A stretch of DNA of 19,407 nt. It comes from a virus (Duplodnaviria > Heunggongvirae > Uroviricota > Caudoviricetes). The notes beneath the pieces are model-generated. The model was given only the letters and a program-made list of their open reading frames with translations. It searched no databases and was not told the origin of the DNA. Made by a program: the position numbers and the translations under genes. This document shows positions 1 to 8,029 of this stretch, piece after piece. Where the stretch lies: the IMG/VR virus record IMGVR_UViG_2619619132_000004. The stretch is one strand, 5' to 3'. The first letter of the stretch is position 1; each line of letters starts with the position of its first letter.

Positions 1-199
1 CACCGTATACCTTGTGATTTTCATCGTATACGCGCTGTATCTCTTTCTTCAGCCAGTCATCGCGCTGCGCACGGGCACTGCGTTTATCCGGATGATGTCG
101 CTGTTGCTGACAGTGGTAATACGTTGACGGGGCAATATGTAGTTCACTGCATACCGGTCCGACCCCGTACAGCTTACGCAGCTTATCCAGCAGTGGCAT
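1..199 (-). CDS. IS3-family transposase OrfB, N-terminal fragment (continues beyond window)
   Basis: Minus-strand translation from ATG at 199: [66 protein letters not shown], typical IS3-family OrfB N-terminus. Start overlaps the orfA stop. Confidence 0.8.
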   Translation of the reverse strand, partial: MPLLDKLRKLYGVGPVCSELHIAPSTYYHCQQQRHHPDKRSARAQRDDWLKKEIQRVYDENHKVYG

Positions 200-525
200 C
201 ACTTTTTCCAGAGGCGGTCGAACTCCGCCTTCGCAAAATAAGCGGAAGCCTGGCGAAGGATATCGTTACTGCGGCGCAGTTCACGATTTTCACGTTCCAG
301 CTCTTTCAGACGCTGACGTTCAGCGGTGGTGAGCCCTCCATCACCGCCCCCGGTATCCCGCTCATGCTGGCGAACCCAGACACGCAGAGTCTCCGGCGTA
401 CAGCCAATCTTTGGAGCAATGGAACAAATTGTCGCCCATTGTGAGTCATATTCGCTCTGACTTTCCAGAACCATACGGACTGCCCGTTGACGGACTTCGG
501 GGGAAAAACGAGTATTTTTAGTCAT
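199..525 (-). CDS. IS3-family transposase OrfA (HTH plus leucine-zipper, 108 aa)
   Basis: ORF track protein [19 protein letters not shown]...[39 protein letters not shown], recognised as IS629/IS3-family OrfA. Confidence 0.85.
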
Positions 526-576
526 CCTGTTTACCTCTTTCTCAGGAAGTTTAGTCTCCAGGATTCCCGGGGCGGT

Positions 577-2013
577 TCAGTTTTCCCTGGCTTTATTGAG
601 TTCCTCCCTCAGTTCCTGGTATTTCGTTTCTACAGATGAGACATTTTCCAGTGATTGCGTGTCCTCATTATGTTTAACTGGAATTTCTTCCACTGATTCA
701 GGCGCTGCCTGTTCATTAGCCATTGTGTCCGATGTTTGTTGCTTTTCTTCATCGCCATGTTTTCCTTCTGCTGTTCCGCGCTGCGGCATCGGTGCTGATG
801 AGCGACCGCAGGCAATTTCCACGATTTCCGGATCCGGGTTAGCGTGATCGGTTTCGGTCAACACTTTGTTGAGATATTCAGTCACGCGTGCCGGGATGGC
901 CTCAATGCCGATTGGTGCTTCTTTCACGGAAGCCACCACAATGGCGCGGGAATAATCCAGCCCACCGGGCATGGCGATAAATTTGTCGCGAAAAACAGAA
1001 AAGGGCGGCTTATTCTCTGACACGATTTCTTCAACGCGTTTTGCGTGTGCTGGGTGCAGGTTATAAATATCCACATCCATTGAACGGGCCAGAACGCCGG
1101 TGGCTACATCTCGTGCGAGTGATGTCTTATCATGTTTGAATCCTTCACCACGATCGGTAATATTTCCGCCGCCAGCGTTAGCACCGGAAGGCGTACGGGT
1201 AATGCCTGAAACATAATTTCCGTTCTGCCATTCTTTTGTCAGCAGGCCCTGATCAAGGTAGTCAGTTTTCATCCAGGTGGAAATGAACTTGTCGAATTCA
1301 GCCGGGCTGATGCGATGATTTGCAGAGTGGGGGAATGCTTTCCCTACAGATTCAGCCAGGCGACTAAGGTGATAGTTCGTCAGTTTATCCAGTTCATGAT
1401 GCGCGGCGCGCACAGCAGTAAGCAGGCTCTGAAGGTAACTGTCCTCTGTGTCCATCTCCATACGGATCACGTTATTGCGTTGTTCTGGTGTGGCATGATG
1501 CCGGTATTTTCCATCTTCATCTTTGCTGAATAAGAAGAGGTGAAGGAAGCGATGAGTAAGGCTCAGAGTGGCGACGGGAATTTCACACTCAGAACAGTCA
1601 TCGTCGCTGTCCGGGGATTCGTTTTTCTCCACATCATCCGGAATAGTTCCGTCCGGGTCATCGTTGTCATCGCCAGCAGTTGTGGCATCTTCACCGTTGA
1701 TGTTGTCATTGAAGGGTATAGCCATCATGGTGATGCCATCTTCCCCGCCTTTTTCATAGCGGTTGCAGAATTCAGTATCAAACACGCCTTCCGGTGGAAG
1801 GTCATTCACGACGGGGAAATTTACGCGAACGGGTTTTTTGAAATCATCCTCGTCGTAGCCTGCATCGTCCATGGCTGCAATGCAGCGGGAAACTGCGACA
1901 GAAAGTTTTCTGGCATCAGCCCAGAAAAAACCGCCTTTGATGCCAAGGCGTTTTCTGACTTTATCGTTTTTTGCTTCGCAGTGTAGTGCAAAAGTCTGTT
2001 TATCAGCGCTCAT
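577..2013 (-). CDS. recE: Exodeoxyribonuclease VIII (RecE)-like protein, N-terminal about 478 aa only; 3' end replaced by IS terminus
   Basis: Long stretches match Rac RecE as I recall it (NFPVVNDLP; [16 protein letters not shown]; [16 protein letters not shown]; [11 protein letters not shown]; YQELRxEL). The stop codon is the terminal TGA of the IS at 577..579, so the nuclease domain expected downstream is absent. RBS GAGG upstream of ATG at 2013. Confidence 0.7.
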
Positions 2014-2120
2014 TGTATTTAAACCTCTGGCTGGATTAGAATTAGAGGCCCTTTGTCTGATTTCTCCGAATACGGTGACGCAGGGAGAAATCCGGTAGCC
2101 TGCGCTGCCGGATTTTTATT

Positions 2121-2507
2121 TCAGTGGAAGGTTGCCTGGTTTGCTGTTTTGTGAGTTGTTTTTCCCTTTTCGTGCTGGCATTCAGAGCAGTCGCACTCAG
2201 AATTTTCTCTTGCAAATTCAAGAGCCTGCGCCAGTGTATGGATTTGTTGTGCTCCAATGTTGCTTCTGACGACTTCACATGCAGCATGAATATATGGGCT
2301 TGGTGTTTTGCCATTTAACCCACATGAAACCAAACGACTGTCTTTATATTCGTTATTTCCAACTTCTGTAAGCACTGAAAAAGAAAATACAAAGTCGATT
2401 TTGTATTCTTTGCATATTTTACTGATGCGTTCTGCAATTTCTTTGAGTTCATTTATTGCATCAGGACTGGTTTCGGAAAATATTTCATTTTGCGCAAGTT
2501 CTTTCAT
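2121..2507 (-). CDS. Hypothetical protein with Cys-rich C-terminus (SECDCSECQHEKGK)
   Basis: 128 aa ORF in the leftward early operon, AT-rich codon usage, weak RBS. No family recognised with confidence. Confidence 0.45.
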   Translation of the reverse strand: MKELAQNEIFSETSPDAINELKEIAERISKICKEYKIDFVFSFSVLTEVGNNEYKDSRLVSCGLNGKTPSPYIHAACEVVRSNIGAQQIHTLAQALEFARENSECDCSECQHEKGKTTHKTANQATFH

Positions 2508-2580
2508 TTTGATTTTTCCGTGATTGATAATTAATGCGGTTTTTATTTCGGCAGATATGGAAGGTGTATTTTATTACTCG

Positions 2581-2802
2581 TCACAACGACTCTGCTTTTA
2601 CGGGTAAGCCATCGCGCCCGATGAAAACTTTAATCATGCAGTCGGTAATGCATGTTTTTGTTGTGAAGTTACGAATATAGAGTTTTCTCTTTTCAATATT
2701 GTTTGCTGAAGCGATATATGTCCGACCTTCATGAAGAACATAATCGCCAGGCGTCACGCACTGACGTGGTATTTCATCAGTTCCGAAGTGATGAGCAATC
2801 AT
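2581..2802 (-). CDS. kilR: KilR-like small protein (73 aa), putative cell-division inhibitor
   Basis: ORF starting [15 protein letters not shown] at ATG 2802 with GGAG RBS 8 nt upstream; 73 aa. Length and position (between recE and the immunity region) fit Rac KilR. Only weak similarity to DicB. Confidence 0.5.
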
Positions 2803-2978
2803 AATTATCTCCATTTTCACAAATGAACTTTGTTGATGCGGTGCCTGGTGCCTCCAGGTGGCGTTAACCAGTTAACAATTAACGCCGGGTCAGGGGACGA
2901 TGACTTTCCGTGACATCCTGTCGGTTTAACTGTTCCGCGTGCGCTGAGCCGCATTCACCGCATCACAAAATTCACTTT

Positions 2979-3040
2979 AAAAAGGGCGGACATCAGCAAT
3001 CGGCAAACCGATATCCGCCAAGGGTTACACACAGCAATGT
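2979..3040 (-). ncRNA. Candidate DicF-like small RNA with intrinsic terminator
   Basis: Minus-strand sequence ...UUGGCGGAUAUCGGUUUGCCGAUUGCUGAUGUCCGCCCUUUUU resembles the DicF 3' half (UUGGCGGUAUCAG...CUGCCGCCCUUUUU) in sequence and architecture. Lies about 180 nt upstream of the KilR-like gene in a 430 bp ORF-free region. 5' end is approximate. Confidence 0.4.
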
Positions 3041-3259
3041 TGTTATTCACAACCGGAAGCGCACGGTCGAAGAAATCTAACGACAATCCTTCTATGGGAA
3101 AGAGTCTTCGCCTCGCGCTTTCGTGTAGTACCCTGGCTTTTCAGGGTAATGTCTGTTCAGTAAAGTGAGAGTGCCGGAACTCACCCGTGTCCGGCGCACG
3201 ATCTCCACCTCACCCGTGGAGAACTCCTCAACTACAAACCCCGTAAGGAGAGTGAATTT

Positions 3260-3469
3260 ATGACACAAGAAGAAAAAGTGATGTTTCTGATGCGGCTGGC
3301 TGTCGATACCTACAATACACAATTCAGGGAGAAAGATATACCTCAAAAGGCAGTTCCTGCCGCGGTAGATAAGGGCGGTGCTATTGCCGTATTTTACGAT
3401 GCATTTGAATCATTTTTTGATGAAAAACTCGACGCTGTTAGCGACTTCGGAACATCGAGTAATAAATAA
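3260..3469 (+). CDS. Hypothetical small protein (69 aa), opposite orientation to the surrounding early-left operon
   Basis: AAGGAG RBS 9 nt upstream of ATG 3260; followed by an intrinsic terminator at 3488..3522. Confidence 0.5.
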   Translation: MTQEEKVMFLMRLAVDTYNTQFREKDIPQKAVPAAVDKGGAIAVFYDAFESFFDEKLDAVSDFGTSSNK

Positions 3470-4224: not shown

Positions 4225-4530
4225 TCAATCGTAATAAGCCGGAATTGATTTTCCGCGTTGTTTCTGGCGGCCTGAGCAAGTCACACCCATTTCACTGCGT
4301 GGTTTGCGGTAGTAAATACGGTTCTGTTTACTCTCGACTTCTTCTGCCTTCTTGCAGCGAAGGCTTCCGAGTGATACTGCTTTGTCTGCTCCGACGCAAC
4401 CAGAGATCTTTAGCGCAATCTTCCGTGTCAGTCTTTCACTACTGCGCCGCTCTGCAATAAGTTCTTCCCTGCGAGCTTTATAGCGGCTTTTTGCCGTACC
4501 TTTGGATTCTTTCCAGATTATGGTTACCAT
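4225..4530 (-). CDS. N: Antitermination protein N (lambda N-like, 101 aa)
   Basis: C-terminus YYRKPRSEMGVTCSGRQKQRGKSIPAYYD matches lambda N (YSKPGERGITCSGRQKIKGKSIPLI); Arg/Lys-rich N-terminus; AAGGAG RBS before ATG at 4530; nutL immediately upstream. Confidence 0.8.
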   Translation of the reverse strand: MVTIIWKESKGTAKSRYKARREELIAERRSSERLTRKIALKISGCVGADKAVSLGSLRCKKAEEVESKQNRIYYRKPRSEMGVTCSGRQKQRGKSIPAYYD

Positions 4531-4640
4531 GATGGTCTCCTTTAAGTGGCTTTGGTGTATGACGCGTCGAGGTGTTTTTCTTCTCGATCGCGGCCTTGCA
4601 ACTGAAATTCGCGTCATCCCCAAAACCACTTAGATTTTGG

Positions 4641-4680
4641 TCTCAACGGTTAGGTTGAGAGTCCATCAATGTTAAAGAGC
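4641..4680 (-). promoter_or_regulatory. nutL candidate: boxA GCTCTTTAACATTG plus boxB hairpin TCTCAAC-CTAACC-GTTGAGA
   Basis: Read on minus strand. The same boxA 14-mer occurs at nutR (6289..6302); boxA resembles the rrn boxA consensus GCTCTTTAACAA. Confidence 0.65.
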
Positions 4681-4685
4681 CGGCC

Positions 4686-4860
4686 AATCTGTTCCGTTTG
4701 GCTTCCAGCGTCCTGCTGTTGAATTGAAGATGACCTAAGTTATCTGGTTGCGCAATAACTATATTTATCATTTTATGAAAAACGTTATAAATGACTGATA
4801 ACAAAAATATTTTATTTTTTGTGGTATCCGCGTGATATTTTCAAGGGGGAAAGGCTGATT
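4686..4860. promoter_or_regulatory. Probable PL/OL region and divergent promoter for the 4864..5085 ORF
   Basis: AT-rich interval upstream of nutL and N with GTTAT/ATAAC half-site dyads (4738..4760, 4786..4804) similar to those in the cI-cro intergenic region. Exact -35/-10 not assigned. Confidence 0.35.
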
Positions 4861-4863
4861 GTT

Positions 4864-5085
4864 ATGGGTGATTGCATGTTAATCGAAGGGGAATTTGGTG
4901 TGTTGCACCAGCGGGTAGTCGAAATTCTAGGGGTGTCGTTGCTTGAGGTTATTGCTACTGGGGAAGCTATTTCAGCAGATGCTATTGCGGGAATGATCCG
5001 AGTGCTTCACCATGATGAATTGGATGATCTCGCTGTGAAGTTAGCTATAGATGTGTTACTTCAGGATATGCGACTGTGTAATTAA
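4864..5085 (+). CDS. Hypothetical small acidic protein (73 aa) between PL and cI, convergent with cI
   Basis: GGGGGAAAGG RBS before ATG 4864; ends 2 bp before a hairpin (5096..5113) usable on both strands. Confidence 0.45.
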   Translation: MGDCMLIEGEFGVLHQRVVEILGVSLLEVIATGEAISADAIAGMIRVLHHDELDDLAVKLAIDVLLQDMRLCN

Positions 5086-5086
5086 G

Positions 5087-5113
5087 TAAATAAAACCCGG
5101 CACTGGAGCCGGG
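5087..5113 (-). terminator. Rho-independent terminator downstream of cI (stem CCCGGC/GCCGGG, then UUUUAUUUA on minus strand)
   Basis: GC-rich 6 bp stem with 6 nt loop and a T-rich tract on the minus strand. Confidence 0.6.
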
Positions 5114-5237
5114 GGATTTAGAAATGGCATTTTATGAATTGGCTACTTGGCGAATGGTTTACCATCGGTGGTATTGAGCACAATAAAAGGCCGTTCTTCG
5201 TGAGTGTTCTTATAGCAAAAGTTCAGTTGGAGTCTGA

Positions 5238-5945
5238 TTACCAGCTATGTGATGACCAGAACACTCGCCCTATGATTCTTACGTTTTTGTAGAATTCTTC
5301 TCTGTTCATTACTTCATCAGGATACTCTTCGCGGTTTATCGATCTGATAATTACCGATGTTGGCGTGGCTATGAGCGTTTTTACCCTTAACAAATCAGCT
5401 TGGCAAATTGCATATGTTTTACCATCCCTGATGCTCGTATCTTGCGTGTTTACCCCCACCACATCACCATCATGGAGTGTTGGCTCCATGCTTTGCCCAA
5501 CAACCCTGACCAACTTTGCCGCTTTTTCTGGAACTCCCATTTTTTTCAGGTAATAGCGCCTAAAAACTAGAGAGAATTCTGCGGACTCCTCCAATGCACA
5601 ACTTCCTCCGCCAGCTGAAAGTGAAATATTTAGAAGGGGGAGCGCAACAAATTCGTCATTATCATTTTGATGATCATCCCAGGCGATAGCTTTTAAAGAT
5701 GATTCCCGAGCATTAGATGGCTCTTCTGCGCTCTGTGGTCTCATTGACCCTATACCAGAGCTTAGCCATTCAGGGCGAACTCTTAACGCGTTGGCTAATT
5801 CGACCATTTTACGTGATCCGGTTGTTTTACCAGATGACATCTTTTGTATGGCTGGTTGTGATACCCCCACCATGTCTGCAAGTTGTGCTTGTGACAACCC
5901 GGCTGAACTCATGGCGGCATTTAGTCTTTCTGCGAATGTTTTCAT
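5238..5945 (-). CDS. cI: CI-type prophage repressor (N-terminal HTH, C-terminal S24 LexA-like peptidase)
   Basis: HTH segment LSQAQLADMVGVSQPAIQKM; Ala-Gly cleavage site (SLSAGGG); GQSMEP serine motif and downstream Lys. Divergent from cro. Confidence 0.85.
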   Translation of the reverse strand: MKTFAERLNAAMSSAGLSQAQLADMVGVSQPAIQKMSSGKTTGSRKMVELANALRVRPEWLSSGIGSMRPQSAEEPSNARESSLKAIAWDDHQNDNDEFVALPLLNISLSAGGGSCALEESAEFSLVFRRYYLKKMGVPEKAAKLVRVVGQSMEPTLHDGDVVGVNTQDTSIRDGKTYAICQADLLRVKTLIATPTSVIIRSINREEYPDEVMNREEFYKNVRIIGRVFWSSHSW

Positions 5946-6055
5946 ACCTGTAATCTATAACCACGGTTATCAAAAGTAAAACAACAATTGTTATTGCTCT
6001 GGTGTATAACTCATGTTATTTTTGGTTATGCTTTATTTGCTGTAGAGGTATGCTC
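5946..6055. promoter_or_regulatory. OR operator / PR-PRM promoter region between cI and cro
   Basis: 110 bp divergent intergenic region with dyads ATAACCACGGTTAT (5957..5970) and AACAATTGTT (5983..5992) and a further GTTAT...GGTTAT element (6014..6028). Confidence 0.6.
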
Positions 6056-6280
6056 ATGAATTTAGTGATTCAGCGAGCCTTGAATATTGTTGGCAGTCAA
6101 AAACGACTTGCAGCTGATTGCGGCGTATCACAGCCCGCTGTTCATAAATGGTTGCGAGGCGGAAAAGTTTCTCCTGAAAAAGTTTTCGCTATCGTTAATG
6201 CCACCAATGGTCAGGTTAAGGCTTACGAAATTCGCCCGGACTTACCGCACCTGTTTCCTCATCCGAACCAGGCTGAATAA
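6056..6280 (+). CDS. cro: Cro-like HTH regulator (74 aa)
   Basis: GAGG RBS 7 nt before ATG 6056; HTH motif QKRLAADCGVSQPAVHKWLRGG. Confidence 0.75.
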   Translation: MNLVIQRALNIVGSQKRLAADCGVSQPAVHKWLRGGKVSPEKVFAIVNATNGQVKAYEIRPDLPHLFPHPNQAE

Positions 6281-6396: not shown

Positions 6397-6693
6397 ATGT
6401 CACAAACAAGTTACAGCAAACTGTCACAGCGCGATATCGATCGCGCTGAAACGGATTTACTTATCAACCTGTCAGCTCTGACGCAAAGGGGACTGGCGAA
6501 GATGATTGGCTGCCATGAATCGAAGGTCAGTCGTACCGACTGGCGATACATCGCGGCGATTTTATGCGCGTTCCAGATGGCATCTGATATCAGTCCGATC
6601 AGCCGGGCTTTCCAGCATGCCATTAACGTTCATGCAAATAAAAAACGTCCGGTTGGGGCCGGACGTTCTGAGCAAATCCTGATGAACATCTGA
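6397..6693 (+). CDS. cII: CII-like transcriptional activator (98 aa)
   Basis: C-terminus NKKRPVGAGRSEQILMNI resembles lambda CII (NKKRPAATERSEQIQMEF); HTH in the centre; position after cro/nutR. Confidence 0.75.
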   Translation: MSQTSYSKLSQRDIDRAETDLLINLSALTQRGLAKMIGCHESKVSRTDWRYIAAILCAFQMASDISPISRAFQHAINVHANKKRPVGAGRSEQILMNI

Positions 6694-6756: not shown

Positions 6757-6913
6757 AGCAACAACACCAACCGCAGCAGCCTGAAGCCGATTGGGTTAAC
6801 CCGGAGATACCGGGACCGTCTGTGAAGATGTGCAGTCACACCAATGTGCAGTCACACCAACCGCAGCAGCCTGAAGCCGATTGGGTTAACCCGGGAGATA
6901 CCGGGACCGTCTG
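6757..6913 (+). repeat. Two tandem degenerate copies (6765..6822 and 6855..6913) of a roughly 60 bp segment also found inside the O-like gene (7603..7688)
   Basis: CACCAACCGCAGCAGCCTGAAGCCGATTGGGTTAACCCGG(G)AGATACCGGGACCGTCTG twice, plus a 16 bp tandem ATGTGCAGTCACACCA x2 between them. Confidence 0.8.
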
Positions 6914-6946
6914 CGGTATGGAGTAAATCTTGTATGCGAGGGGACT

Positions 6947-8029
6947 ATGCGTAATTACGCAACAATTTCACCTCAGTTCTGGTTAGGCGATACAGGGCGA
7001 AAACTCAGGAAGTCTGGTCCGGAATGTATGGTAGTGGCGTTGTATATGATGACCTCGCCTCATTCCAATATGCTGGGCCTTTATTACCTGCCTGTTTTGT
7101 ACATTGCTCACGAAACCGGACTTGATCCTGAAGGGGCTTCTAAGGGGCTTCAAATGGCTTGCGAGGCTGGTTTTTGCAGCTATGACCATGATTCTGAGGT
7201 TGTATGGGTGCATGAAATGGCAGCATGGCAGGTTGGTGAATCGCTGAAACCTGGCGATAACCGTTGTGCTGGGGTAAGAAATGAATATTCCGCGTTGCTG
7301 GAAAATCCTTTTTTATCATCCTTTTATGATAGATATAAGGATGATTTCCACCTGGATGTCAGACGTGAATCATGTCGGAAAATTGAAGCCCCTTCAGAGC
7401 CCCTTTCAAGCCAAGAACAGGAACAGGAACAAGAACAGGAAAGGGATAAAACCCTTCTGGTCCATGGCGAAAAAATCGCCACGGACCCACAGGGGGATTT
7501 TTGTCCTGTTCTGACTGAACGTCCAGGACCAGCTGGCACGACACCGGAAGCAGATTCCGGGCGTTGTGTGCAGCAGGTGCTGATCGTCGAACCGGAGCAA
7601 CAACGCCAACCGCAGCAGCCTGAAGCCGATTCCGCGATGAGCGGGAAGCCGATTGGGTTAACCCGGGCGATGCCGGGACCGTCTGCGGGACGAGTTGATT
7701 ATCCTGACGTGTTCGAACGGGTCTGGCGTGAATATCCGCATCGGGCAGGGTCAAACCCGAAGAAATCCGCGTTCAATGCCTGGAGGGCCAGATTACGCGA
7801 AGGGGTGTCACCGGATGTCGTGCTGGATGGCGTGAGGCGTTACGCAAGATACCTGGAGGCTACCGGGAAAGCGGGAACTGAATTTGTTCAGCAGGCATCG
7901 ACGTTTTTTGGCCCGAACAGGAATTTCGAAAATCCGTGGTCGCTGCCGAAGGCTGGCGCAGTCAGCCTGCGTTGCGTGAATCACATTTCTGAACCGGACA
8001 CCGAAATTCCGCCGGGTTTCAGGGGGTAA
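6947..8029 (+). CDS. Phage replication initiation protein (functional analogue of lambda O), 360 aa, with internal EQ repeat
   Basis: GAGGGG RBS before ATG 6947; sits between cII and the DnaC-like loader; contains the repeated segment 7603..7688 and an (EQ)n run at 7411..7440. Confidence 0.6.
   Translation: MRNYATISPQFWLGDTGRKLRKSGPECMVVALYMMTSPHSNMLGLYYLPVLYIAHETGLDPEGASKGLQMACEAGFCSYDHDSEVVWVHEMAAWQVGESLKPGDNRCAGVRNEYSALLENPFLSSFYDRYKDDFHLDVRRESCRKIEAPSEPLSSQEQEQEQEQERDKTLLVHGEKIATDPQGDFCPVLTERPGPAGTTPEADSGRCVQQVLIVEPEQQRQPQQPEADSAMSGKPIGLTRAMPGPSAGRVDYPDVFERVWREYPHRAGSNPKKSAFNAWRARLREGVSPDVVLDGVRRYARYLEATGKAGTEFVQQASTFFGPNRNFENPWSLPKAGAVSLRCVNHISEPDTEIPPGFRG

What the first reader, a model, noticed from the sequence alone, without database searches (positions are those of the whole stretch)
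4686..5120. Opposite-strand small gene between PL and cI, in the slot occupied by rexAB in lambda
A 73 aa acidic protein (4864..5085) with a strong RBS is transcribed rightward, divergently from the PL/OL region and convergently with cI, and shares a two-way hairpin terminator with cI. Genes in this slot in lambdoid phages are often lysogen-expressed exclusion or defence functions. A promoter in the AT-rich 4760..4860 interval would overlap the OL-like GTTAT/ATAAC dyads, suggesting CI-linked regulation.
Basis: partly seen in the sequence, partly recalled or inferred. Interest (0 to 1): 0.5.

Follow-up and report, generated by a model that had tools for sequence, protein, structure and literature searches.

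The report
Conserved small acidic gene beside PL
A real, strongly conserved but uncharacterised 69-residue acidic phage protein is encoded next to the early-left control region of this lambda-like prophage. It has its own promoter, which the repressor's binding sites do not cover, so it looks like an independent accessory gene and not a rexAB-type or repressor-controlled one.

Summary
The ORF is real and protein-coding. It matches phrog_3946 (E 3e-30), homologues in Salmonella and Klebsiella phages give a median dN/dS of 0.07, and RefSeq annotates it as hypothetical. Homologue alignment places the start at ATG 4876 (69 aa), not 4864 (73 aa).

In 61 of 80 related viral contigs the order is N(-), PL/OL, this gene(+), 0-2 kb of variable cargo(-), repressor(-). 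This holds across four N query groups and several repressor query groups.

The gene is not in the rexAB slot. It lies between the T-rich element upstream of PL, which lambda also has, and a hairpin homologous to lambda's post-rexB terminator (t_imm). In lambda that interval is a 120-bp spacer. The true rexAB slot is empty here; in relatives it holds cargo such as BstA.

A conserved extended -10 promoter (TGaTATTTT, 4833-4841), at a fixed distance from the T-rich element, recurs in at least ten operator contexts. It lies outside OL1-3 (4730-4788), so CI control by operator overlap is not supported.

The hairpin at 5096-5113 is a canonical terminator only for the cI strand.

The protein is acidic (pI 4.4) and predicted as three helices. 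It has no Pfam, PADLOC, PDB or BFVD match and only a weak, unproven resemblance to DUF2767/FumD. Its function is unknown; the most likely reading is a self-transcribed accessory protein that acts by binding another protein.

The parts
4225..4530 (-). N antiterminator gene (phage-21-like, 101 aa); first gene of the PL operon
   Evidence: ORF. Weak Pfam N_peptide hit. PGAP CDS at the same place in L001. Annotated 'antitermination protein N' in phage 06-3462. My first translation began one codon early, at 4533.
4641..4680 (-). nutL: boxA GCTCTTTAAC (4680..4671) and boxB hairpin TCTCAACCTAACCGTTGAGA (4660..4641)
   Evidence: Read. Window 4602-4718 is 92% identical to stretches annotated nutL / Nut boxA in phage 21, mEp235 and HK629.
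4727..4755 (-). PL (inferred): -35 TTGCGC 4755..4750, 17-nt spacer, -10 CATCTT 4732..4727, start about 4720
   Evidence: Inferred from the sequence. The layout parallels PR, which has -35 TTGCTC six nt from OR1. Not tested.
4730..4788 (.). OL1 (4730-4743), OL2 (4755-4768), OL3 (4775-4788): ATAAC-N4-GTTAT operators, the same motif as OR1-3 (6006-6019, 5981-5994, 5957-5970)
   Evidence: Pattern search: 16 matches at up to 2 mismatches against 7.1 expected, and none of 200 shuffles reached 16. The six sites flank cI at 20-25 bp spacing.
4788..4820 (-). PL-upstream element: IHF-consensus core TATCAGTCATTTA (4800..4788, minus strand) and an A/T tract (ATTTTATTTTTT, 4809-4820 on +). The tract also covers the -35 region of the small gene's promoter
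   Evidence: The T-rich element is present in 52 of 58 distinct upstream sequences; YTGAT lies 14-15 nt to its left in 37, and the full IHF consensus is present in 16. Lambda has GAATTTATTTTTT at the same place, 89-102 bp upstream of PL. IHF binding itself is inferred.
4833..4841 (+). Extended -10 promoter of the small gene: TG (4833-4834), -10 hexamer TATTTT (4836-4841); predicted start about 4848
   Evidence: A TGnNATNCT-type motif lies at a fixed distance from the T-rich element in 50 of 52 upstream sequences, across at least ten operator contexts. The generic -35/-10 scan does not detect it. No transcript data exist.
4866..4871 (+). Shine-Dalgarno GGGTGA for the ATG at 4876
   Evidence: It aligns with the GGGA/GAGG 5-7 nt upstream of the start codon in homologues.
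4876..5085 (+). Small gene, 69 aa (phrog_3946 family); the alternative in-frame start at 4864 gives 73 aa
   Evidence: Structure model: three helices, mean pLDDT 70.8.
5096..5113 (-). t_imm-like hairpin CCCGGC-N6-GCCGGG: intrinsic terminator of the cI (PRM/PRE) transcript, and only a hairpin without a U-tract for the small gene's transcript
   Evidence: Terminator scan, minus strand only. Fold of -13.4 kcal/mol, matched by none of 200 shuffles on the minus strand. Homologous to the AAAACCCGGCGCTGAGGCCGGG hairpin after lambda rexB and to the hairpins in S149, L089 and L090.
5114..5237 (.). Empty rexAB-equivalent slot between the hairpin and the end of cI
   Evidence: No ORF on the cI strand here. 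Relatives carry 0.4-2 kb of cargo at this place.
5238..5945 (-). cI-type repressor (HTH_3 + Peptidase_S24)

Best explanation
This is an autonomous accessory gene of lambdoid prophages (family phrog_3946).

Shown or strongly supported:
- It occupies its own slot, between the T-rich element upstream of PL and the t_imm-like terminator that ends the cI operon.
- It carries a conserved sigma-70 extended -10 promoter candidate (TGaTATTTT, 4833-4841), with a predicted start near 4848.
- It encodes a 69-aa, strongly acidic, hydrophobic protein predicted to form three helices.

Inferred:
- No repressor operator lies within the promoter, and the same promoter recurs next to many different operator sets. 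The gene is therefore expected to be transcribed independently of CI, in the lysogen as well as in lytic growth. IHF binding at the shared upstream element, or supercoiling from the divergent PL, may modulate it.
- The protein has no basic DNA-binding surface and does not co-vary with the N or repressor type. It therefore most likely works by binding, and sequestering or blocking, a host protein or a conserved phage protein.
- It is dispensable for lambdoid development, because lambda lacks it while keeping both flanking elements.
- The most likely functional class is a prophage accessory function affecting host physiology or competing phages.
For: - Coding: phrog_3946 E 3e-30 over the full length. 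There were 24 clusters at 50% identity among 1.8 billion proteins and 630 hits at 90% clustering, mostly Klebsiella, Salmonella and E. coli. Median dN/dS is 0.07. GC skew turns positive over the gene.
- Position: among 80 viral contigs, an N-like gene lies to the left on the opposite strand in 64, a repressor to the right on the opposite strand in 71, and both in 61. These span four N query groups and five repressor query groups. The gap to the repressor is 67-2126 bp. Annotated phages and two metagenomic contigs show the same order.
- Slot: lambda has the same T-rich element and t_imm hairpin, with only 120 bp between them.
- Promoter: the T-rich element, a fixed spacer and TGnNATNCT are present in 50 of 52 distinct upstream sequences, whatever the operators.
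- Operators: they lie at 4730-4788, outside the promoter.
- Mobility: one relative (L075) carries the gene among tail-fibre and DinI-like cargo, outside any immunity region.
- Protein: pI 4.4, 12 acidic against 4 basic residues; three helices, pLDDT 70.8.
Against: - No transcript, protein or phenotype data exist for any family member (searches found no paper).
- The promoter is a conserved motif, not a mapped start site. The generic promoter scan did not call it, and its -35 region is poor (TTATTT).
- OL3 ends only 21 bp from the T-rich element, and the gene lies inside the expected OL-OR loop. Indirect CI effects therefore cannot be excluded.
- GC content does not differ from the neighbours, unlike many morons.
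- The + strand terminator is weak.
- PADLOC gave no hit, so nothing ties the gene to defence.
- A GRAVY of +0.7 could mean membrane association or obligate oligomerisation instead of a soluble binder.
Confidence: 0.5

Rival explanations
1. CI-controlled early gene. CI bound at OL keeps the rightward promoter off in the lysogen. The promoter fires together with PL on induction or infection, and the protein serves early lytic growth, for example as an anti-defence or host-takeover factor.
For: - The promoter lies 45-60 bp from OL3, diverges from PL (start sites about 128 bp apart) and sits inside the OL-OR interval.
- A weak fourth operator-like site, ATAACAAAAATATT (4797-4810, three mismatches), lies just upstream of the -35 region.
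- Negative supercoiling behind a derepressed PL would favour a divergent promoter (general knowledge).
- Small acidic early proteins are often anti-defence factors (general knowledge).
Against: - The promoter sequence, spacer and -10 are the same next to at least ten different operator sets, with no repressor-specific site inside them.
- OL3 is centred about 66 bp upstream of the predicted start. That is not a position that blocks RNA polymerase.
- The fourth site is below the level of the six clear operators.
Confidence: 0.25
2. The important product is the transcript. Rightward transcription reads through the U-less hairpin into the 3' end of the cI operon and lowers repressor or cargo expression by convergent transcription or antisense RNA. 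That would tune the lysis-lysogeny switch.
For: - The hairpin lacks a U-tract on the + strand in the window and in S149.
- The gene is convergent with the repressor operon in every locus examined.
Against: - Strong purifying selection on the amino-acid sequence (dN/dS 0.07) shows that the protein itself is selected.
- Conserved length and conserved residues point the same way.
- In relatives, up to 2 kb of cargo separates the gene from the repressor.
- The L075 copy has no repressor nearby.
- No Rfam family matches.
Confidence: 0.08
3. The protein is a diverged phage copy of the chromosomal DUF2767/FumD (YdhZ) family and shares whatever that 69-aa protein does. YdhZ is annotated as fumarase D.
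For: - It has the same length, 69 aa.
- The N-terminal motif is similar: DE(F/L)(F/Y)xEM..V(I/V)G.xV(M/L)(Q/E).
- hhalign of the family against a FumD profile gives P 0.006-0.014. The real score of 18.4 exceeds all 150 column-shuffled controls (mean 10.0, sd 1.9).
- One of 22 members hits PF10965 at E 0.032, and one UniRef cluster is named DUF2767.
Against: - The hhalign probability is only 3-6%.
- The window protein gives no PF10965 hit at E up to 0.1 or up to 1; FumD itself scores E 7e-41.
- Residues invariant in FumD (for example RDLGQEPKH) are not conserved in the phage family.
- Column shuffling destroys helix periodicity, so that control is lenient.
- I could not find or check the evidence behind the fumarase annotation.
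Confidence: 0.12
4. Chance ORF or mis-annotation in an AT-rich regulatory spacer.
For: - It is short and has no Pfam domain.
- It is left unannotated in several phage records (epsilon34, ST104, the Stx1a phages).
Against: phrog_3946 hit, dN/dS 0.07, conserved start, Shine-Dalgarno and length across three genera.
Confidence: 0.02

Closest known systems
PHROG family phrog_3946 (unknown function); RefSeq WP_024166114.1 'hypothetical protein'
   Same: Full-length match (E 3e-30, residues 6-70 of the 73-aa form against profile positions 2-67 of 67). PGAP annotates the same CDS, 69 aa from the ATG at 4876, in E. coli prophages.
   Different: Nothing differs. This is the family the gene belongs to, and it carries no functional information.
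Lambda rexAB and other cargo downstream of cI (BstA, 434 Hex, HK022 Nun)
   Same: It lies in the same variable interval between cI and N, which PMC8585504, citing Degnan et al. 2007, describes as a hotspot of mosaic diversity. It is plausibly expressed from the prophage.
   Different: Those genes lie on the cI strand, upstream of t_imm, and are described as sharing the repressor's promoter (PMC8585504; PMC3564112 for Hex; PMC2629481 for epsilon34 genes 44 and 45). This gene is on the opposite strand, beyond the t_imm-like hairpin, with its own promoter. It has no sequence similarity to any PADLOC model.
Phage 'morons' (independent promoter-gene-terminator units inserted between backbone genes)
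   Same: It has its own conserved promoter. It is present or absent between conserved flanks: lambda has both flanks and no gene. One copy sits in a tail-fibre cargo region.
   Different: GC content is not distinct from the neighbours. The terminator for its own strand is doubtful. Its position is far more fixed than is usual for morons.
DUF2767 / FumD (YdhZ) of Enterobacteriaceae (PF10965)
   Same: It is a 69-aa protein, and a similar N-terminal motif gives a weak profile-profile signal. I did not model the FumD structure.
   Different: It is below every accepted threshold. FumD is a highly conserved chromosomal gene, at least 79% identical across genera. It is basic where the phage family is acidic, for example RDLGQEPKH.
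Lambda PL upstream region (IHF site and distant UP element)
   Same: The element GAATTTATTTTTT lies 89-102 bp upstream of the lambda PL start, and ATTTTATTTTTT lies at the same distance from the inferred PL start here. [quoted passage not shown] 1998, as cited in PMC1784095.
   Different: Here the same element also forms the -35 region of a rightward promoter that lambda lacks.

Membership tests
phrog_3946 | Significant full-length match to the family profile | tested here: met
   E 3.2e-30, 104.8 bits, profile positions 2-67 of 67.
phrog_3946 | Conserved core motif shared with family members (HxQ..V(I/L)G.A(V/L)(M/L).(V/L)L ... S ... M(I/V) ... DL(A)V.LA(I/L)DVL) | tested here: met
   Alignments A2 and A3: G19 and L61 are invariant in A2, and A21, S33, M40, L44, L56, D59 and V60 are nearly invariant. 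In A3, G19, S33, M40, L44, L52, L56, D59, V60 and L61 are invariant.
rexAB-type cI-operon cargo | Same strand as cI, and located between cI and the t_imm terminator so that it is co-transcribed from PRM/PRE | tested here: not met
   The gene is on the opposite strand and lies distal to the t_imm-like hairpin at 5096-5113.
rexAB-type cI-operon cargo | Confers exclusion of, or abortive infection by, other phages | not testable with these tools
   This needs phage challenge of cells expressing the gene.
Known anti-phage defence proteins (PADLOC-DB v2) | Match to a defence-system protein model | tested here: not met
   No family at E up to 1. As a positive control for the approach, the neighbouring cargo gene in phage S107 hits BstA at E 9e-100.
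Moron (autonomous accessory unit) | Own promoter | tested here: inconclusive
   A conserved extended -10 motif lies at a fixed position in 50 of 52 distinct upstream sequences. No start site has been mapped.
Moron (autonomous accessory unit) | Own terminator | tested here: inconclusive
   A hairpin lies 10 nt after the stop codon but has no U-tract on the + strand.
Moron (autonomous accessory unit) | Present or absent between conserved flanking sequences in related phages | tested here: met
   Lambda has the T-rich element and the t_imm hairpin with only 120 bp of non-coding DNA between them. The gene is present in only 50 of 5426 complete E. coli genomes.
Moron (autonomous accessory unit) | Base composition distinct from the surrounding phage DNA | tested here: not met
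   GC is 0.43-0.445 over the gene and 0.40-0.49 in the neighbours.
DUF2767 / FumD (PF10965) | Score above the Pfam gathering threshold (20.7 bits) | tested here: not met
   The window protein gives no hit at E up to 0.1 or 1. Only 1 of 22 family members reaches E 0.032. FumD itself scores 138.7 bits.
DUF2767 / FumD (PF10965) | Significant profile-profile similarity | tested here: inconclusive
   hhalign P 0.006-0.014 with probability 3-6%. The real score was above all 150 column shuffles.
Bidirectional intrinsic terminator | GC-rich hairpin followed by a U-tract on both strands | tested here: not met
   Minus strand: hairpin followed by UUUUAUUU. Plus strand: hairpin followed by GGAUUUAG, and the scan calls the minus strand only.

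The most novel reading that the evidence does not exclude
The family may be a so-far unrecognised regulatory component of many lambdoid immunity regions. On this reading, the small acidic helical protein is made from an operator-free, -35-independent (extended -10) promoter, acts on the transcription or proteolysis machinery, and so biases the lysis-lysogeny decision or blocks heteroimmune lambdoid phages. Candidate targets include sigma-70 region 4 (as with T4 AsiA, which spares extended -10 promoters), the arginine-rich motifs of N proteins, RecA, Lon and FtsH. The fixed position beside OL/PL, the shared IHF/UP element and the convergence with the repressor operon would then be functional, not historical.
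Probability: 0.08. Interest if true: 0.75.

Novelty: new member of a known kind. Interest (0 to 1): 0.4.

Why it matters
The N-PL/OL-cI interval of lambdoid phages is one of the most studied regulatory regions in biology. Even so, a well-conserved gene with its own promoter sits in it in many E. coli, Salmonella and Klebsiella prophages, without a name or a known function. Several reference phage records, including epsilon34, ST104 and a set of Stx1a phages, do not annotate it at all.

Separating this slot, which lies beyond t_imm on the opposite strand, from the rexAB/BstA cargo slot sharpens how immunity regions should be annotated. If the protein proves to be made in lysogens and to bind a host or phage factor, it would add a new accessory or regulatory function. 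The experiments needed are simple: a reporter fusion, a knockout, a phage challenge and a pull-down.

If it proves to be just one more small accessory protein, the finding is ordinary.

Tried and rejected
- Pfam, NCBIfam and PADLOC scans of the protein gave nothing significant.
- A sequence search of the PDB with the family profile found only noise, E at least 0.29.
- The AlphaFold2 model from 5 sequences was poor (pLDDT 61). The model from 41 sequences was better (pLDDT 70.8, three helices).
- Foldseek against the PDB and BFVD found no match at E 0.001 or better. The afdb50 library was not available, so I could not make a fold comparison with the AlphaFold model of FumD.
- The DUF2767/FumD lead came from a UniRef name and my recollection that YdhZ is DUF2767, which one search confirmed. 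I tested it with three hhalign runs and a shuffle control. The signal is weak, so I did not accept membership. A genome scan for more diverse FumD relatives returned only sequences at least 79% identical, so that profile could not be deepened.
- I suspected that lambda keeps a remnant of the gene's 5' end (CAGGGGGGCATTGTTTGGTAGGTGA against CAAGGGGGAAAGGCTGATTGTTATGGGTGA). The MAFFT alignment did not support it beyond the terminator, so I dropped the idea.
- Rfam found nothing relevant in 4400-5400.
- The generic sigma-70 scan found no -35/-10 promoter for the gene. The extended -10 motif emerged only from the comparative alignment.
- By eye, there is no LexA box (CTGT-N8-ACAG) around the promoter in the window or in the Salmonella relatives.
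- Literature searches for the accessions, the PHROG id, DUF2767, divergent PL promoters and the mEp021 Ipe protein found nothing on this gene. Degnan et al. 2007 is not held.
Full report
**Context**

The window is the early region of a lambda-like prophage. Around the finding lie:
- a phage-21-like N gene (4225-4530, minus strand), with boxA at 4680..4671 and boxB at 4660..4641;
- an AT-rich control region;
- the small + strand ORF;
- a GC hairpin (5096-5113);
- a cI-type repressor (5238-5945, minus; HTH_3 + Peptidase_S24);
- a Cro-like gene (6056-6280, +) and a CII gene (6397-6693, +).

The 641 bp around the finding are at least 99% identical to Stx phage PA28, phage 06-3462, a set of Stx1a-converting phages and prophages in 50 of 5426 complete E. 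coli genomes. RefSeq annotates the ORF as a 69-aa hypothetical protein starting at the ATG equivalent to 4876. The 06-3462 record uses the start equivalent to 4864. Several records do not annotate it at all.

**Is the gene real?**

Yes.
- The protein matches PHROG family phrog_3946 over its whole length (E 3e-30).
- tblastn finds homologues at 32-49% identity in Salmonella P22-like phages (epsilon34, ST104/S149, g341c, SPN9CC), in phage S107 and in Klebsiella phages.
- A profile search of 1.8 billion representative proteins finds a compact family of 24 clusters, all 49-101 aa.
- A word-indexed search finds 630 members, mostly from Klebsiella, Salmonella and E. coli.
- Across 37 distinct coding sequences, the 56-codon core has a median dN/dS of 0.07 over 300 moderately diverged pairs.
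- GC skew turns positive over the gene, as expected for a + strand coding region.

Homologues begin four residues before the conserved (D/E)EFF motif, which aligns with ATG 4876 (MLIEGEFG...). In the closest subfamily (66% identity, MAIEESFG...), both the ATG and a GGG-type Shine-Dalgarno align exactly with 4876 and GGGTGA 4866-4871. The 73-aa form from 4864 cannot be excluded, but it is the less likely start.

**Where exactly does it sit?**

I classified the neighbours in 80 related viral contigs.
- The family gene has an N-like gene on the opposite strand to its left in 64 contigs.
- It has a repressor on the opposite strand to its right in 71 contigs.
- Both are present in 61 contigs. Most of the rest are truncated or have unrecognised types.
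- Four N query groups and five repressor query groups are represented.
- The distance from the gene to the end of the repressor ranges from 67 to 2126 bp (median 933). It is filled by variable genes on the repressor's strand.

Annotated phages and two metagenomic contigs show the same order. Examples of the variable cargo are BstA in phage S107 (PADLOC E 9e-100), P63C-domain proteins in S149 and L090, and epsilon34 genes 44 and 45. The epsilon34 paper places those two genes in the repressor operon 'like rexA and rexB' (PMC2629481).

Lambda itself has GAATTTATTTTTT just right of OL3, then 120 bp of non-coding DNA, then the hairpin AAAACCCGGCGCTGAGGCCGGG, then the end of rexB. I take that hairpin to be t_imm from prior knowledge; the record does not annotate it. 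The window and its relatives keep both flanks: the T-rich element (4809-4820 here) and a homologous hairpin (5096-5113 here). The small gene lies between them.

So the gene is not in the rexAB slot. The rexAB-equivalent slot, between cI and the hairpin, is empty in this window (5114-5237). The small gene occupies a separate slot beyond the terminator of the cI operon.

**Operators and PL**

The repressor's operators are ATAAC-N4-GTTAT.
- Three lie right of cI: 5957-5970, 5981-5994 and 6006-6019.
- Three lie left of the small gene: 4730-4743, 4755-4768 and 4775-4788.
- The pattern gives 16 matches at up to two mismatches against 7.1 expected, and none of 200 shuffles reached 16.

By analogy with PR (-35 TTGCTC six nt from OR1), I infer PL as -35 TTGCGC (4755..4750) and -10 CATCTT (4732..4727), starting near 4720. 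This is inference from the sequence.

**The gene's own promoter**

I aligned 58 distinct upstream regions.
- 52 contain the T-rich element (G)ATTTATTTTT.
- In 50 of those 52 it is followed, at a fixed distance, by an extended -10 motif: TGcCATACT, TGcGATACT, TGtTATGCT or TGaTATGCT. In the window it is TGaTATTTT at 4833-4841.
- The measured gap is 10-12 nt and depends only on the length of the T run.
- The sequence to the left of the T-rich element differs completely between operator types (at least ten contexts). The promoter, the leader and the Shine-Dalgarno stay the same.

The promoter therefore travels with the gene, not with the immunity specificity, and it contains no repressor-specific site. 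In the window it lies 21-53 bp to the right of OL3.

The generic -35/-10 scan misses this promoter because its -35 region is poor. Extended -10 promoters do not need a good -35 (established knowledge). The predicted start is near 4848, which puts the AAGGGGGAAAGG 'strong RBS' at or partly upstream of the 5' end of the mRNA.

Lambda, which lacks the gene, also lacks a -10-like sequence after its T-rich element.

**The shared upstream element**

YTGAT lies 14-15 nt left of the T run in 37 of 52 sequences, and the full IHF consensus (WATCARNNNNTTR on the minus strand) is present in 16, including the window (TATCAGTCATTTA, 4800..4788).

In lambda the element lies 89-102 bp upstream of the PL start. 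[quoted passage not shown] 1998, as cited in PMC1784095. The exact mapping onto this sequence is my inference.

The same element would cover the -35 region of the small gene's promoter. IHF could therefore couple the two divergent promoters. This is untested.

**Terminator**

The hairpin folds well on both strands. It is followed by UUUUAUUU only on the minus strand. On the + strand the tail is GGAUUUAG, and the few U residues can pair back with the A-tract. S149 has no U-tract on the + strand either.

It is thus the terminator of the cI transcript, and at best a partial stop for the small gene's transcript. Some antisense read-through towards cI is possible. However, the strong selection on the protein sequence shows that the RNA is not the only product that matters.

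**The protein**

- It is 69 aa and 7.5 kDa, with pI 4.4, 12 acidic and 4 basic residues, and GRAVY +0.73.
- The model built from 41 sequences has three helices (2-28, 34-45, 51-67) at mean pLDDT 70.8.
- No PDB sequence match and no Foldseek match in the PDB or BFVD.
- No Pfam, NCBIfam or PADLOC family.

The same protein allele occurs with different N and repressor types. Its partner is therefore unlikely to be the specificity-determining part of N or CI.

One relative (L075) carries the gene among tail-fibre, tail-fibre-assembly and DinI-like genes, outside any immunity region. That fits a mobile accessory module.

**The DUF2767/FumD lead**

One UniRef cluster is named DUF2767, and one of 22 members hits PF10965 at E 0.032. 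E. coli FumD (YdhZ), also 69 aa, is a clear DUF2767 member (E 7e-41). Profile-profile comparison gives P 0.006-0.014 but a probability of only 3-6%. The real score of 18.4 exceeds all 150 column-shuffled controls (mean 10.0, sd 1.9). That control is lenient for helical proteins, and motifs invariant in FumD are not shared. I treat remote homology as possible but unproven, and I do not file the gene under DUF2767.

**Conclusion**

The gene is a real member of an uncharacterised phage family. It lies in a distinct and remarkably fixed slot beside PL/OL, and it has its own conserved, operator-free extended -10 promoter. The most likely mechanism is transcription independent of the repressor, in the lysogen as well as in lytic growth, producing a small acidic helical protein that acts by binding another protein. 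It is an accessory function, not a core switch component, because lambda lacks it.

A defence or exclusion role, an early anti-defence role, or a regulatory role in the switch all remain open. No experiment on any family member was found.

Noticed in passing
window 6757-6916 and 7596-7688: Three copies of a direct repeat of about 70-90 nt (CACCAACCGCAGCAGCCTGAAGCCGATTGGGTTAACCCGG..GATACCGGGACCGTCTG; 63-97% identical to the reference copies). Two lie between cII and the 360-aa replication-initiator-like ORF (6947-8029) and one lies inside that ORF. They may be origin- or iteron-like.
   Followed up: partly
L006:3350-4117 (-), Salmonella phage S107: The gene directly downstream of cI is BstA (PADLOC E 9e-100). 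It lies in the true rexAB-equivalent slot, with the small-gene homologue further on, beyond two more cargo genes. S149 and L090 carry P63C-domain proteins in this slot.
   Followed up: partly
L075:3989-4195: One family member is not in an immunity region. It follows tail-fibre and tail-fibre-assembly genes and a secreted 178-aa protein, and is followed by a 347-aa ORF and two DinI-like ORFs. It lacks the T-rich element and the extended -10 upstream.
   Followed up: partly
L079-L086 group (Klebsiella), upstream of the family gene: Seven loci have TGTTGTGCT instead of TGTTATGCT, which is G in place of the critical -11 A of the extended -10. This may be a natural promoter-down variant.
   Followed up: no
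L053:4693-5285 (-): By eye, the cargo slot holds a HicA/HicB-like toxin-antitoxin pair and a lipoprotein between the repressor and the small gene. Not checked against profiles.
   Followed up: no
window 4797-4810: ATAACAAAAATATT is a fourth, weak operator-like site (three mismatches). It lies between OL3 and the T-rich element and is centred about 44 bp upstream of the predicted start of the small gene. That distance is similar to the position of OR2 relative to PRM in lambda (the lambda distance is from prior knowledge).
   Followed up: no
window 4225-4530 and 4602-4718: The N protein carries a phage-21-type arginine-rich motif (GTAKSRYKARRE). The nutL region is 92% identical to that of phage 21, mEp235 and HK629, whereas the immunity region is of the PA28/Stx1a-phage type. 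This is ordinary lambdoid mosaicism.
   Followed up: partly
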